A DNA stretch of 64,000 nucleotides, from positions 384,001-448,000 of the forward strand of contig CM000433.1 of the NCBI GenBank assembly GCA_000165345.1, given 5' to 3'. Under the pieces are notes generated by a model that was not told the origin of the DNA, made no database searches, and was given only the letters and a program-made list of their open reading frames with translations. Both the position numbers and the translations under genes were made by a program. Below are positions 14,781 to 52,148 of the stretch, in pieces (within the stretch, counting starts at the first letter, position 1; each line of letters starts with the position of its first letter).

Positions 14781-14786
14781 GGCGCC
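14781..14786. promoter_or_regulatory. GGCGCC (E2F-like) motif in the divergent CCT4/nucleoporin promoter region
   Basis: aatgGGCGCCgctg, 232 bp and 160 bp from the two start codons. Confidence 0.3.
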
Positions 14787-14944
14787 GCTGCGTGGTTCAT
14801 TTTTATTAATTCTAGATACAGAAATATTCATCCAACAATGCTCAATATTGGCAATATGAACATTTAATCAACGCGAATACATATTTTTGATTTATTAATC
14901 AGACTAAAACACTCCTAAATTTACAAGAATAGTAGTTTAGAGAA

Positions 14945-15910
14945 ATGTTTTTTTCTCAAACTAATGTTGGAAACGTAAGCACTGCAGGTCTAGGATTATT
15001 TGGCTCCACTGGGCCTGGGGCAGCGTCAAACTCACTCAATTTGTCTGCAAGTATTACTCAGACTGGGCAATCAATCACTCCGCCTGCTATTCCTGGGAAC
15101 TCGTTATTTCAATTATCAAATTCACAATCTGGAATATCTAATTCATCAAATTTATTCGGAACTTCAAATTTAAATAATTCCTCAATAGGAATACTTGGTA
15201 GTACTGGATCTAATGTATCTCTATTTGGGGCATCTCAGACACAAAATCAACCCCAAACGCAAATAAATCCACAAGCTCAATATCTCCCTTTAAACCCTAC
15301 TATTGGCCAGTTAACTAACTATATTCAAAGCTGGAAGGCTGAATTTGACGAAATTGAAAATCAACTACGTGGGAATGATAAACATATTGAATATTTGACC
15401 AACAATAAACTTATTGAAATTACTCGCTTATGTAGTACATACAAGAAAGGTGTAGAAAGACGAAATGAGGAAATCGAAAACATCAAATCTCTTCAGTTCA
15501 GGGCACAGGATTCAATTGAATCAGTGATATCTGAAATCACAACTGTACAACAGTTGAGTCACGACATTACCCATATTTACGATCGTATTAAAGATATTGA
15601 CCAAAACAACTCCTCAAGACAAATTCAACCGTTAAGATTCCCTTTACCTATATTTGAGTTTTTCTGTGAGAATATGGCAAAAAAGTGTAAGGGTATTGAA
15701 GAGATTATTGGTAATTTAGATAGAGCTGTTTCTTCGTTAAGAGAGGAACTGACCAATGCAACTGCAGAAGATGTGCTTAAATATATTGCAGAAATAATTA
15801 ATAACAACTATGAGGCATTTTATGATTTAGTTACTAAGTGTTCCCAACTTCATGATAAGACAGAGTCTGTTGTAAATATATCTAAATTACACGACGCAAG
15901 TCGGAATTAA
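14945..15910 (+). CDS. FG-repeat nucleoporin with C-terminal coiled coil (Nup62/Nup58/Nup54-family candidate)
   Basis: The N-terminal half has repeated LFGSTG, LFGTSN and LFGASQ motifs in a Ser/Asn/Gln-rich context. The C-terminal roughly 200 aa is predicted helical coiled coil. Confidence 0.45.
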   Translation: MFFSQTNVGNVSTAGLGLFGSTGPGAASNSLNLSASITQTGQSITPPAIPGNSLFQLSNSQSGISNSSNLFGTSNLNNSSIGILGSTGSNVSLFGASQTQNQPQTQINPQAQYLPLNPTIGQLTNYIQSWKAEFDEIENQLRGNDKHIEYLTNNKLIEITRLCSTYKKGVERRNEEIENIKSLQFRAQDSIESVISEITTVQQLSHDITHIYDRIKDIDQNNSSRQIQPLRFPLPIFEFFCENMAKKCKGIEEIIGNLDRAVSSLREELTNATAEDVLKYIAEIINNNYEAFYDLVTKCSQLHDKTESVVNISKLHDASRN

Positions 15911-15946
15911 AAACCATGCATAGATATCTAATTAATTTATTATATA

Positions 15947-49845: not shown

Positions 49846-50071
49846 GACTACATGACTTAAATAGCGCATAGATAATTCCATTTGTAGAACCCAAACTTTA
49901 AGCATTTCTTTTTCCTTAATATTGCTTATTGAAAAGTTTCCTGAGACAAAAAATATTGAATAGATCTAATGTATTACTCTTAAGACTTAAATATATCAAA
50001 ATAACCTAGATATTATCTCTAATTAACAATCTATTTGATTTCGGGAGTGCATTAAGCAGACTTATTAGGAA

Positions 50072-51925
50072 TTATTCAGAATCTTCATCCTGGGGAGAAT
50101 GACTCAAACAAAGAGCGGAGTCAACTTTTATTCCTGGATGGCTGTTTTCAGTTGAAACGATGTCCAAATCCCTAGGGCTCTCGATACAATCTTGTGGAAT
50201 TACTGACATACCTATGTCGGCGACTGTTGGTGAAAGTACGGGCGTTATTACTTGTGATTCAGATTCAGGTGTATCGATTAGTGGTGATTCTGACAAAGGC
50301 GAGGGCGAGTAATCTGAGGATGGGGTTCTGGGAGATGGTGACGCGGTAGTAACGGCGGTAGTAGTGGTAGTTGTACTTTTAGTTGTAGTAGTAGTAGTTT
50401 CATCAGAAACAGCTTCTTCAATCAAGCCATCTTCTTGATTCGAGTTGAAAATTTCTCTTTCAGAGGTGGATGTTGATAAAAGCTTTCTATCAAATGTACC
50501 CACTTCGTCAAATAACTCCTCATTGGTATCATCTTCACCATGGACTTCTTCAGCTTGTGGATTAACTTGATCCAAAGAGGATTCTGGGATAATAAAGCGC
50601 TCAAGCTTAGAATAGTCCCCATTATATATGTTATAAATGGGTGGAAGTGAGACTTCTTCAATTGAAACCTCTAGTTTGGAAATAATATCTGAAACTAATG
50701 TTGAGAACTCAGAACTGAGGAGGCATTTGTTTAAAGATAAGACTTCTGGGTGGATTTCTCCCACTTTGTTGAAAATAAGCGCATTCCAGAGAGTCGATAC
50801 AGGCTCAAATAAAGTGTTTGACTTAAGACCATACATATAACCGTACTCGGCATCACTTTCAGACCAATGAATAAATTTAAACGCTTGGATAGAATTCTCC
50901 AAAATGTAATGGAGCTTAATATATTCAGGTAGTAACTCTAAATTTGTTGCCTCGATGTTTGCCTCCTTCTCTATATTGGCGTTTCTAATCCTCAAATGTA
51001 AGTTCAATCTTTCAATACCTGCCTTTGAGTTCAAATTATAAGGAAAACCAAAATTTGGAGGTGAAAGAAGCGATCTAACATTACCAATATCGTCATAAAG
51101 ATAGGGTAGTCCAAATTCCCTATAATACTTTCCATCTTCCTTGAGCATAAACATTCTATTTACAGAAGTAAGAACATCATCTAGAATATTTGGGCATCCC
51201 TTTAAAACCAGTCTTAGTAATAAATTAATTGCTGACTCCTCGGATAACGACTTGAGTTCTTCAGAGTTATTAGATTGAGCGGCCTTAGTATTTCCATATG
51301 CAAAACGAAGAGCCGAGTAGCTTTTTGCAGCTTCCATTAGACCTTCAAGATTCAATTCAGTAGCATATGAAATCTTTGATTCGAGCTGCTTGAATAATTG
51401 AGCTGGCCCATGATCCCACCATTCTTCTGGAGAAGATGGTAAGTCACTGTCTTGTACAGTTATCCAATAGTCAAATGCTTCCCAGGCTGCAGAAAGAACT
51501 GCTTTTCTTGAAACACTCTTAATGTCATCTAAATCCATCATCTTCTTCTTAAGCTCAATACTCTTATTCAATACAGATTCCCATCCCAGTGGTAAAAGAT
51601 TAACATCAATTCTGTTAGACTTTAAATGATTGAAAATCTCTTGAATAACATCAGCAGATCTTACAAGAGTAGAGTCCTTCATTTTTTTTGCCCATAAACT
51701 TAAACTAGGCAAGTCACCTCTAGAGTGCAAAAGAGTAAGTTTTCTGATTACAACAAGCTCAAAGACTTTTCTTGCATAAGTAAAATCTGGCTTCTCCTCT
51801 GGACTCCAAACAACAACTTGAGGGTTTCCAGGAACAACATCATTCAAAGAAATACTGTTTTCCCCATTTCCAAACGCAAGGGCTAGCAAGGATAAGAAAA
51901 GTAAACCAAATCTTATGAACTTCAT
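50072..51925 (-). CDS. Secreted protein with a Thr-rich mucin-like C-terminal region
   Basis: Signal peptide MKFIRFGLLFLSLLALAFG. C-terminal TTTTTTKSTTTTTTAVTTASPSPRTPSSDYSPSPLSESP (predicted heavily O-glycosylated). No other domain recognised. Confidence 0.5.
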   Translation of the reverse strand: MKFIRFGLLFLSLLALAFGNGENSISLNDVVPGNPQVVVWSPEEKPDFTYARKVFELVVIRKLTLLHSRGDLPSLSLWAKKMKDSTLVRSADVIQEIFNHLKSNRIDVNLLPLGWESVLNKSIELKKKMMDLDDIKSVSRKAVLSAAWEAFDYWITVQDSDLPSSPEEWWDHGPAQLFKQLESKISYATELNLEGLMEAAKSYSALRFAYGNTKAAQSNNSEELKSLSEESAINLLLRLVLKGCPNILDDVLTSVNRMFMLKEDGKYYREFGLPYLYDDIGNVRSLLSPPNFGFPYNLNSKAGIERLNLHLRIRNANIEKEANIEATNLELLPEYIKLHYILENSIQAFKFIHWSESDAEYGYMYGLKSNTLFEPVSTLWNALIFNKVGEIHPEVLSLNKCLLSSEFSTLVSDIISKLEVSIEEVSLPPIYNIYNGDYSKLERFIIPESSLDQVNPQAEEVHGEDDTNEELFDEVGTFDRKLLSTSTSEREIFNSNQEDGLIEEAVSDETTTTTTKSTTTTTTAVTTASPSPRTPSSDYSPSPLSESPLIDTPESESQVITPVLSPTVADIGMSVIPQDCIESPRDLDIVSTENSHPGIKVDSALCLSHSPQDEDSE

Positions 51926-52142
51926 CCTATTAATTTCTAATAATAATTCAGATTATGCGTATCTCTTCATCAATATCCTAAACGCGTTTTCTTTATTTCG
52001 TAATTGTTATTTTTGGAACGTTCCTCTTCTACCATTACCCGGCAAATTTTTTTATTTTTTCCCAATTAGAGGGAATTATTGCCTTGTAATATTTTACTAG
52101 ATTTTTTTATTTAATTTGTTGTTAGTTACTGTTTCAATAGTT

Positions 52143-52148
52143 GGCGCC
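52143..52148. promoter_or_regulatory. GGCGCC motif followed by a TATAAA box upstream of the mucin-like gene
   Basis: gttGGCGCCtag at 52143, TATAAA at about 52188, roughly 218 bp 5' of the ATG at 51925. Confidence 0.3.

What the first reader, a model, noticed from the sequence alone, without database searches (positions are those of the whole stretch)
14781..52148. GGCGCC (E2F-like palindrome) enriched at least 8-fold and confined to 5' intergenic regions
At roughly 30% GC the palindromic hexamer GGCGCC is expected less than once in 64 kb. I found six copies (14781, 21212, 31996, 32785, 41384, 52143). All are 110 to 230 bp upstream of a start codon, two sit centrally in divergent promoters, and none appeared inside an ORF on visual scan. 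Flanks are often T/G-GGCGCC-N. Related GGCGGG/GCGGC half-sites occur near 9580, 39247 and 47306. This is the behaviour of a core promoter or transcription-factor site. E2F/DP-type TTTSGCGCS-like motifs are among the few over-represented upstream elements reported for Cryptosporidium, so the motif also hints at taxonomy. GCATGC, the AP2-type motif of apicomplexans, co-occurs in three intergenic regions (31964, about 45238 as GCATGCATG, and 59530 as TGCATGCATGCA).
Basis: partly seen in the sequence, partly recalled or inferred. Interest (0 to 1): 0.55.

Follow-up and report, generated by a model that had tools for sequence, protein, structure and literature searches.

The report
Known E2F-like promoter motif, Cryptosporidium
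The GGCGCC hexamers are real, conserved promoter elements, but they are the well-documented "E2F-like" upstream motif of Cryptosporidium parvum, so the finding is correct and ordinary rather than new.

Summary
The window is Cryptosporidium parvum chromosome 5 (cgd5_18xx to cgd5_20xx), shown by exact protein matches. GGCGCC occurs 7 times, not 6. The missed copy, at 31264, lies inside the enolase ORF as Gly-Ala codons, is absent from six other species, and looks like chance. The other six copies lie in the roughly 17% of the window outside long ORFs: 6 observed against 0.14 expected (about 43-fold), while coding sequence shows 1 against 0.92.

The related GGCGG(G) form behaves the same way, with 11 against 2.1 in intergenic DNA. 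Every one of the 7 divergent intergenic regions holds one such site, and none of the 7 convergent regions does.

Orthologous loci from C. meleagridis, C. ubiquitum, C. canis, C. felis and C. xiaoi keep the sites at almost the same distance from the ATG, although the flanks are barely alignable. In the gastric species C. serpentis most sites are lost or degenerate.

This is the published E2F-like motif (Bankier 2003; Mullapudi 2007, which used this very enolase upstream region; Oberstaller 2013; Xiao 2025, ATAC-seq). Cryptosporidium encodes E2F and DP proteins, but direct binding has still not been shown.

Verdict: interpretation supported, already known. Side observation: a conserved, structured RNA-like element at about 38870-39100 on the minus strand.

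The parts
14781..14786 (.). GGCGCC site in the divergent promoter between TCP-1 delta (12939-14549, -) and cgd5_1890 (14945-15910, +). It lies 232 bp and 159 bp from the two ATGs.
   Evidence: Conserved in C. ubiquitum at 241/162 bp; C. canis has AGCGCC at the aligned position.
21212..21217 (.). GGCGCC site 214 bp upstream of the PH-domain gene ATG at 20998 (-).
   Evidence: Conserved in C. meleagridis and C. canis at -218/-219; C. ubiquitum has GGCGCT and C. felis AGCGCC.
21194..21203 (.). (CG)n tract CGCGCGCGCG in the same promoter, containing three overlapping matches to SGCGCS.
   Evidence: GCGCGCGCGG is invariant in the 5 species aligned, at -201 to -207 (-250 in C. felis).
31996..32001 (.). 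GGCGCC site 154 bp upstream of the enolase (cgd5_1960) ATG at 31842 (-). It belongs to a conserved module: GTGTGC-A-GGCGCC, plus TGTACGA at 31971-31977 and GCATGC at 31963-31968.
   Evidence: GGCGCCT is invariant in all 6 intestinal-clade species (C. parvum plus five others) at -147 to -197. This upstream region was analysed in Mullapudi 2007 and is used as a strong promoter in transfection constructs.
32042..32046 (-). GGCGG(G) site (CCCGCC on the + strand) 200 bp upstream of the enolase ATG.
   Evidence: GCGG is invariant across the 6 species; GGCGG is kept in 4 of the 5 other species.
32785..32790 (.). GGCGCC site 220 bp upstream of the AtPH1-like gene ATG at 32565 (-).
   Evidence: Present in C. 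meleagridis, C. ubiquitum and C. xiaoi at -217 to -256; absent in C. canis and C. felis.
32814..32818 (+). GGCGG site 249 bp upstream of the AtPH1-like gene ATG.
   Evidence: CCGCC is present at the corresponding place in 4 of the 5 other species.
41384..41389 (.). GGCGCC site at the centre of the 229-bp divergent promoter between RIO kinase (-) and the cgd5_2010 AAA ATPase (+). It lies 110 bp and 115 bp from the two ATGs.
   Evidence: Conserved in C. meleagridis, C. ubiquitum, C. canis and C. xiaoi; C. felis has GCCGCC.
52143..52148 (.). GGCGCC site 218 bp upstream of the ATG at 51925 (-). It is the only exact match in the window to the published DTTGSCGCCH consensus (GTTGGCGCCT).
   Evidence: Conserved in C. 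ubiquitum (-210) and C. felis (-217).
3457..3461 (-). GGCGG site preceded by a G run (GGGGGGGGCGG), upstream of the proteasome alpha gene.
   Evidence: GGGGGGGCGG is also present in C. ubiquitum and C. canis, 143-151 bp upstream of the orthologous gene.
7296..7300 (+). GGCGG site 65 bp upstream of the ESF1-like gene ATG at 7231 (-).
   Evidence: C. ubiquitum has GGCGG at -66 and C. canis has GGCGCC at -68, so the two forms replace each other at one orthologous position.
9579..9583 (+). GGCGG site at the centre of the 205-bp divergent promoter between Gpi1 (-) and Las1 (+). It lies 99 bp and 103 bp from the two ATGs.
   Evidence: Conserved in C. ubiquitum (101/105 bp) and C. canis (100/107 bp).
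17264..17268 (+). GGCGG site in the divergent promoter between the GPN-loop GTPase (-) and the EF-hand protein (+).
   Evidence: Conserved in C. ubiquitum and C. canis.
29189..29193 (-). GGCGG site in the divergent promoter between the 2511-aa gene (-) and the Rce1-like gene (+).
   Evidence: Present in all 6 species at -299 to -306 from the large gene's ATG, although intergenic length ranges from 554 to 724 bp. C. serpentis has it at -267.
39236..39252 (+). Two GGCGG(G) sites, at 39236 and 39248. They lie 541-553 bp upstream of the M60-like peptidase ATG and about 140 bp upstream of a conserved structured RNA-like block.
   Evidence: C. serpentis has TTAGGCGCCAAAA about 200 bp upstream of the same block.
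47310..47315 (+). GGCGGG site (GGCGGGAAT, the canonical GCGGGAA form) 218 bp upstream of the FHA-domain gene ATG. It is followed by a conserved ACATGCA and TGTGGGG (G-box) module.
   Evidence: GCGGGAATTCCCCAT and the downstream module are conserved in C. ubiquitum and C. felis. Orthologous annotation places a glycosyltransferase gene on the other strand, so this is a divergent promoter.
59325..59329 (-). GGCGG(G) site (CCCGCC on the + strand) 200 bp upstream of the SKI/DDX60-like helicase ATG at 59124 (-).
31264..31269 (.). Seventh GGCGCC copy, inside the enolase coding sequence as codons GGC GCC (Gly-Ala). It is not part of the element and is a chance occurrence.
   Evidence: All six other species read GGT GCN at these codons.
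59527..59538 (.). TGCATGCATGCA, a match to the published AP2_1 motif, in the same intergenic region as site 59325.
   Evidence: The motif family is listed in the papers read.
45237..45245 (.). GCATGCATG (AP2_1 motif) in an intergenic region that has no E2F-like site.

Best explanation
The GGCGCC hexamers, together with the related (T)TGGCGG(G/T)A sites, are the E2F-like cis-regulatory elements of Cryptosporidium promoters.

Shown here:
- The sites are confined to intergenic regions that contain a gene 5' end.
- There is usually one per promoter, including one central site per divergent promoter.
- They lie about 65 to 300 bp upstream of the ATG.
- They are kept under purifying selection, at nearly fixed distance from the ATG, across intestinal-clade Cryptosporidium species.

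Inferred from the literature and from what is established about E2F:
- An E2F/DP winged-helix heterodimer recognises the symmetric SGCGCS core. Cryptosporidium, alone among apicomplexans, keeps these proteins.
- Binding opens or marks the promoter and drives transcription. Because the core is a palindrome, it can do so in either direction, which suits the compact bidirectional promoters of this genome.
For: Organism identity.

Enrichment: 6 against 0.14 expected in non-ORF DNA, and 1 against 0.92 in ORFs. GGCGCC is the top G+C-rich hexamer for intergenic bias. GGCGG is 11 against 2.07 in intergenic DNA and 9 against 10.1 in coding.

Topology: 7 of 7 divergent, 7 of 15 tandem and 0 of 7 convergent intergenic regions hold a site. 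Several of the 'tandem' gaps without a site are introns or ORF splits. The promoters without a site carry the other published motifs instead: G-box, TGCATG, GCACAC.

Footprinting: orthologous sites are kept in 5 further species at near-identical distance from the ATG. Mean conservation of the motif windows is 0.68 against 0.23 for background windows (permutation p about 0.002). GGCGCCT is one of the two longest invariant runs in the enolase promoter alignment. GGCGG and GGCGCC replace each other at one orthologous position. In the other species' loci GGCGCC falls 15 times in intergenic DNA and once in coding sequence.

Literature: the same motif is described as E2F-like and as the most abundant upstream motif. 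It is the main motif in ATAC-seq peaks, typically one per peak. E2F and DP genes are present in the genome. AP2 domains tested on protein-binding microarrays bound other motifs.
Against: No experiment shows that E2F/DP binds these sites; the 2025 review says so.

The T-rich and A-rich flanks of the canonical TTTSGCGCS site are weak around the six palindromes. Only one of them matches DTTGSCGCCH exactly, and four match WSGCGCSW.

In the gastric species C. serpentis most orthologous sites are absent or reduced to TTGGCGC. The enolase promoter there keeps its GCATGC module but has no E2F-like site. Individual sites are therefore dispensable over long evolutionary times.

No transcription start sites were available, so position was measured only relative to ATGs.
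Confidence: 0.82

Rival explanations
1. The sites are genuine promoter elements, but a factor other than E2F/DP reads them, for example a GC-box-binding zinc-finger protein or an untested ApiAP2 domain. On this view the resemblance to E2F sites is coincidental.
For: No direct binding data exist. The flanks of the palindromes lack the canonical T-run. Some sites resemble GC boxes, such as GGGGGGGGCGG at 3457 and AGGGCGGGA at 32042.
Against: The core SGCGCS/GGCGGG is exactly the E2F/DP core, and the asymmetric sites give TTGGCGG(G/T)AA, close to TTTGGCGGGAA. The genus kept E2F/DP while other apicomplexans, which lack this motif, lost them. The C. parvum AP2 domains that were tested bind TGCAT, CACACA and G-box motifs, not this one.
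Confidence: 0.12
2. The sites are a compositional or structural feature of promoters, such as short G+C islands that exclude nucleosomes or leftover CpG-rich sequence, with no sequence-specific reader.
For: The intergenic DNA is only 28% G+C, so any G+C-rich hexamer stands out. A conserved (CG)5 tract sits next to one site.
Against: The exact hexamer is conserved while the flanks diverge to 7-13% invariant columns. Other G+C-rich hexamers do not show the same bias. The substitutions seen stay within the E2F family, as in GGCGG to GGCGCC.
Confidence: 0.04
3. The clustering is chance in a small sample.
For: There are only seven copies in the window.
Against: 0 of 100 whole-window shuffles and 0 of 300 intergenic shuffles reach the observed count. 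Orthologous conservation is an independent line of evidence. Genome-wide studies have already reported the enrichment.
Confidence: 0.01

Closest known systems
C. parvum E2F-like upstream motifs (Oberstaller et al. 2013: motif 3 DTTGSCGCCH / 5'-TGGCGCCA-3' and motif 4 TTTGGCGGGAAV; first noted by Bankier et al. 2003; core GGCG upstream of glycolytic genes in Mullapudi et al. 2007)
   Same: Same organism, same core sequence and same upstream location. The enolase cgd5_1960 upstream region in this window was part of the 2007 data set. Site 52143 is an exact DTTGSCGCCH match, and four sites match [A/T][C/G]GCGC[G/C][A/T].
   Different: Nothing of substance differs; these are instances of that motif. 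I did not find either point in the papers I read.
Canonical E2F/DP binding site of animals and plants (TTTSGCGCS; e.g. TTTCCCGCC / TTTGGCGGG)
   Same: The symmetric SGCGCS core, the GGCGGG variant (47310 reads GGCGGGAAT), the promoter-proximal position, and the presence of E2F and DP genes in the genome according to the literature.
   Different: The T-run flank is weak at the palindromic sites. No pRB-type partner is known in Cryptosporidium. The motif is found at most promoters rather than at a cell-cycle regulon. Binding is unproven.
ApiAP2 AP2_1 motif TGCATGCA (this applies to the GCATGC part of the finding)
   Same: GCATGC/TGCATGCA is found in intergenic DNA at 31963, 32861, 45237 and 59527. 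In the enolase promoter CATG is invariant across the 6 intestinal-clade species, and C. serpentis keeps GCATGC there. This matches the published motif that several C. parvum AP2 domains bind.
   Different: The enrichment in this window is modest, and two thirds of the copies are in ORFs.

Membership tests
E2F/DP binding site (cis-element) | Core [C/G]GCGC[C/G], or the GGCGGG variant | tested here: met
   There are six intergenic GGCGCC sites, a (CG)5 tract and eleven intergenic GGCGG(G) sites.
E2F/DP binding site (cis-element) | T-rich 5' flank and A-rich 3' flank (TTTSGCGCS / 12-bp site) | tested here: inconclusive
   The GGCGG-type sites give (A/T)T(T/A)GGCGG(T/G)AA, with T at position -2 in 7 of 11. 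The palindromes have weak flanks, and only 52143 matches DTTGSCGCCH exactly.
E2F/DP binding site (cis-element) | Promoter-proximal location in accessible chromatin | tested here: met
   Every site lies in an intergenic region that contains a 5' gene end, and most are 65-300 bp from an ATG. None is in a convergent region. The ATAC-seq support comes from the literature only. Position relative to transcription start sites could not be tested with these tools.
E2F/DP binding site (cis-element) | Cognate E2F and DP proteins encoded by the organism | not testable with these tools
   They are not encoded in this window. The literature lists cgd1_1560 and cgd6_1430 (E2F) and cgd7_3650 and cgd8_1850 (DP).
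E2F/DP binding site (cis-element) | Demonstrated binding by E2F/DP, and dependence of transcription on the site | not testable with these tools
   No experiment has been reported; the 2025 review states that functional validation is lacking.
E2F/DP binding site (cis-element) | Purifying selection on the site (phylogenetic footprint) | tested here: met
   Motif windows are conserved in a mean 0.68 of species against 0.23 for background (p about 0.002). Orthologous positions are kept. The copy inside the enolase ORF is not conserved.
Published C. parvum E2F-like motif family (Oberstaller 2013) | Sequence from C. parvum, upstream of genes, matching motif 3 or 4 | tested here: met
   Organism identity. 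Octamer WSGCGCSW: 4 of the 6 intergenic GGCGCC sites match. Motif 4-like GGCGGGAAT at 47310. The enolase upstream region was used in Mullapudi 2007.

The most novel reading that the evidence does not exclude
The E2F-like site may be more than one regulatory motif among many. It could be the general, orientation-independent core-promoter element of intestinal-clade Cryptosporidium. On this reading there is essentially one site per promoter, held at a fixed distance from the start of the gene (for example -299 to -306 in six species while intergenic length varies by 170 bp). The site would set where transcription starts in both directions, in place of TATA or Inr elements. The system would have been largely rewired in the gastric clade (C. 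serpentis). Xiao et al. 2025 already point in this direction; the cross-species spacing constraint and the turnover between clades would be the new parts.
Probability: 0.25. Interest if true: 0.4.

Novelty: already known. Interest (0 to 1): 0.12.

Why it matters
For the scan, this shows that a tool-free reader can recover a real regulatory motif, and the organism, from raw sequence. It adds no new biology.

For Cryptosporidium research, E2F-driven transcription is an open and clinically relevant question, because no binding or mutagenesis data exist. The site-by-site conservation map made here picks out concrete, testable sites. The best is the invariant GGCGCCT at -154 of the enolase promoter, which is already a standard transfection promoter.

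Tried and rejected
Main finding:
- Chance was tested and rejected with shuffles.
- I considered whether the ORF copy at 31264 is functional. It is not: it consists of synonymous-variable Gly-Ala codons that no other species shares.
- I checked whether promoters without a site hide weaker variants. They do not; they carry G-box, TGCATG or GCACAC motifs instead.
- The DTTGSCGCCH consensus with one mismatch allowed is not informative: 23 matches against 16 expected.
- I did not search for E2F/DP proteins, because none is encoded in this window. I relied on the literature for that point.

Conserved block at 38870-39100:
- Rfam gave nothing at gathering thresholds or at E-value up to 10, and no tRNA was found.
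- From memory I compared the block with U2, U3, U5, RNase P/MRP, telomerase RNA and H/ACA snoRNAs. None fitted. The U5-like GCCUUUU is paired, with a compensatory change. The MRP P4 consensus is not met. The H/ACA guide topology does not fit.
- A metagenome scan with the invariant 18-mer returned at least 120 unrelated hits and no homologue.
- The supplement of Li et al. 2022 that lists C. parvum ncRNA loci is not held, so I could not check whether the block is already catalogued.
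Full report
**Identity of the window.** Seventeen ORFs translated from the window are exact matches to annotated proteins of Cryptosporidium parvum chromosome 5. They include cgd5_2010 (nuclear VCP-like AAA ATPase), a RIO kinase, enolase, an AtPH1-like protein, TCP-1 delta, Las1, Gpi1/PIG-Q and a SKI/DDX60-like helicase. The window is 32% G+C and gene-dense. 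Non-overlapping ATG-to-stop ORFs of at least 100 codons cover 83% of it.

**The observation.** Dinucleotide-preserving shuffles of the window give 1.04 on average, and 0 of 100 shuffles reach 7.
- The copy at 31264 is inside the enolase ORF, so 'none inside an ORF' is wrong by one. It is the codon pair GGC GCC (Gly-Ala). All six other Cryptosporidium species examined read GGT GCN there, so it is a lineage-specific synonymous accident.
- The other six copies lie in the 10.8 kb outside long ORFs, which is 28% G+C. That is 6 observed against 0.14 expected, with 0 of 300 shuffles reaching 6. ORFs show 1 against 0.92 expected.
- Among 1845 reverse-complement-collapsed hexamers, GGCGCC is the top G+C-rich word for intergenic-versus-coding bias (6:1, binomial 1.3e-4). 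Only A+T-rich words rank above it.

**The wider motif family.** GGCGG/CCGCC behaves in the same way, with 11 observed against 2.07 expected in intergenic DNA and 9 against 10.1 in ORFs. Oriented, these sites read (A/T)T(T/A)GGCGG(T/G)AA. I then classified every gap between ORFs:
- All 7 divergent (5'-5') regions hold an E2F-like site.
- 7 of 15 tandem regions hold one. Several of the empty ones are introns or ORF splits within a single gene.
- None of the 7 convergent (3'-3') regions holds one.

The few real promoters without a site carry other published C. parvum motifs: GTGGGG upstream of LETM1, TGCATG and GCACAC upstream of the CAP/SCP gene, and CATGCATG upstream of the PITH gene.

**Related loci.** I fetched the orthologous, syntenic loci from six species:
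- C. ubiquitum (L001, L007, L009)
- C. felis (L002, L010)
- C. meleagridis (L003)
- C. canis (L004, L008)
- C. xiaoi (L005)
- the gastric-clade C. serpentis (L006)

Intergenic DNA is poorly alignable, with 7-13% invariant columns in three of the regions. Even so, the sites persist at nearly the same distance from the ATG:
- GGCGCC upstream of enolase lies at -147 to -197 in all six intestinal-clade species (C. parvum plus five others). GGCGCCT is one of the two longest invariant runs of that alignment.
- The RIO/AAA divergent site is kept in five of six species.
- The GGCGG site upstream of the 2511-aa gene lies at -299 to -306 in all six, although intergenic length ranges from 554 to 724 bp.
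- Site 52143 recurs at -210 in C. ubiquitum and -217 in C. felis.
- Site 14781 recurs in C. ubiquitum and is AGCGCC in C. canis.
- Sites 9579, 17264, 7296 and 3457 are kept in C. ubiquitum and C. canis.
- The ESF1 promoter has GGCGG in C. parvum and C. ubiquitum and GGCGCC at the same place in C. canis.

Motif windows are identical in a mean 0.68 of the other species, against 0.23 for all other windows of the same alignments (permutation p = 0.0025 for the hexamer and 0.0014 for the pentamer). In the six enolase-centred loci of other species, GGCGCC falls 15 times in intergenic DNA and once in coding sequence, which makes up 78-88% of each locus.

C. serpentis has only two exact sites in 21 kb, plus TTGGCGC-type remnants. 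Its enolase promoter keeps the GCATGC module but has no E2F-like site. Sites therefore turn over at genus depth.

**What it is.** This is the E2F-like upstream motif that has been described repeatedly for C. parvum:
- Oberstaller et al. 2013 report E2F (5'-TGGCGCCA-3'; motif 3 DTTGSCGCCH, motif 4 TTTGGCGGGAAV) as the most over-represented upstream motif. They credit Bankier et al. 2003 with first noticing it, and Templeton et al. 2004 with finding E2F/DP genes in Cryptosporidium but not in Plasmodium (PMC3734150).
- Mullapudi et al. 2007 found a GGCG-core motif upstream of glycolytic genes. Their data set included the 364-bp upstream region of enolase cgd5_1960, which is window 31843-32202 (PMC1779779).
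- Oberstaller et al. 2014 showed that C. parvum AP2 domains bind TGCAT, CACACA and G-box motifs, and treat the E2F motif as non-AP2 (PMC4117751).
- Xiao et al. 2025 find E2F motifs to be the dominant motif in sporozoite ATAC-seq peaks, typically one per peak and often in bidirectional promoters. They list two E2F and two DP genes.
- The 2025 review gives the consensus [A/T][C/G]GCGC[G/C][A/T] and stresses that there is no functional validation (PMC12246861).

Four of the six intergenic GGCGCC sites match that octamer, and 52143 matches DTTGSCGCCH exactly.

**Mechanism.** What is shown here: these are sequence-specific, selectively maintained elements of promoter-containing intergenic regions, with constrained spacing to the gene start. 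What is inferred: an E2F/DP heterodimer binds the symmetric core and activates or opens the promoter. The palindromic core explains why one site can serve two divergent genes.

The main rival is that another factor reads the site. It is weakened by three points: the match to the E2F core, the joint presence of motif and factor in this genus alone among apicomplexans, and the AP2 binding data. It is not excluded, because nobody has shown binding.

**The GCATGC remark.** Ten more copies are in ORFs. Enrichment is 5 against 0.89 expected in intergenic DNA and 10 against 6.7 in ORFs. This is the published AP2_1 motif.

**Verdict.** The phenomenon is already known. Interest is low.

**Noticed in passing.** The 572-bp region between the RIO kinase 3' end and the M60-like peptidase ATG contains a block at about 38870-39100 on the minus strand. 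It is far more conserved than its surroundings in all seven species, with invariant runs of 21 and 17 nt and no codon-like pattern.
- Its 3' half (38873-38994) folds into a long hairpin followed by an invariant ACA. The fold has z = -3.45 on the minus strand and -2.17 on the plus strand.
- 99.6% of cells are paired across the seven species, and four pairs carry compensatory double changes. 0 of 500 shuffles reach the observed percentage of cells paired, number of pairs with a change on both sides, or covariation score. All four compensatory changes are seen in a single row (C. serpentis), so they amount to a single lineage's evidence.
- Rfam finds nothing.
- It may be one of the unnamed intergenic or UTR ncRNAs reported by Li et al. 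2022, but I could not check this.
- The GGCGG pair at 39236/39248, and GGCGCC in C. serpentis, lie 140-200 bp upstream of the block. That would explain why these sites are unusually far from the peptidase ATG.

Noticed in passing
window 38870-39100, minus strand (hairpin 38873-38994, ACA at 38870-38872): A conserved structured RNA-like element lies between the RIO kinase and the M60-like peptidase. It has invariant 21-nt and 17-nt runs across 7 Cryptosporidium species, including C. serpentis. It forms a long hairpin (z = -3.45) with 4 compensatory pairs, and G-U pairs favour the minus strand. Rfam gives no hit. It may be an uncatalogued ncRNA or a 5'UTR element, with E2F-like sites 140-200 bp upstream. 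From memory only, and untested: its invariant UUUGAGUCAAA is complementary to the universally conserved 18S segment UUUGACUCAA.
   Followed up: partly
window 20999-21211 (promoter of the PH-domain gene, minus strand): 32% of columns are invariant across 5 species. The invariant runs include GCGCGCGCGG, GGAATCTAAAATAATT (16 nt) and AAGTGTGTT, between the GGCGCC site and the ATG. This is much more conserved than typical intergenic DNA here.
   Followed up: no
window 47310-47365: A compact promoter module is conserved in C. ubiquitum and C. felis: GGCGGGAATTCCCCAT, then ACATGCAAAT, then TGTGGGGAAAGATATCAAAATTTATG. It places E2F-like, AP2_1-like and G-box motifs within about 55 bp.
   Followed up: partly
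window 46080-47532: No long ORF is listed in this 1.45-kb gap. The orthologous loci annotate a multi-exon glycosyltransferase family 2 gene on the minus strand there, so the FHA-gene promoter is really a divergent promoter.
   Followed up: partly
window 14700-14780 (TCP-1 delta / cgd5_1890 divergent promoter): A block TTTTGCGGGGTATCGAGTAGACAGTTGTA-GATCAAA next to the GGCGCC site is nearly invariant in C. parvum, C. ubiquitum and C. canis.
   Followed up: no
window 12818-12938, 43577-43900, 45143-45473: These short tandem intergenic regions have no E2F-like site. They might mark internal genes of the polycistronic transcripts described by Xiao et al. 2025, or promoters driven only by AP2 or G-box motifs.
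   Followed up: no
L006 (C. serpentis) 708-2915: The RIO-to-M60 intergenic region is 2.2 kb in C. serpentis, against about 0.57 kb in the intestinal species. It carries tandem ATTATTGCATGCATG repeats near 1543-1590.
   Followed up: no
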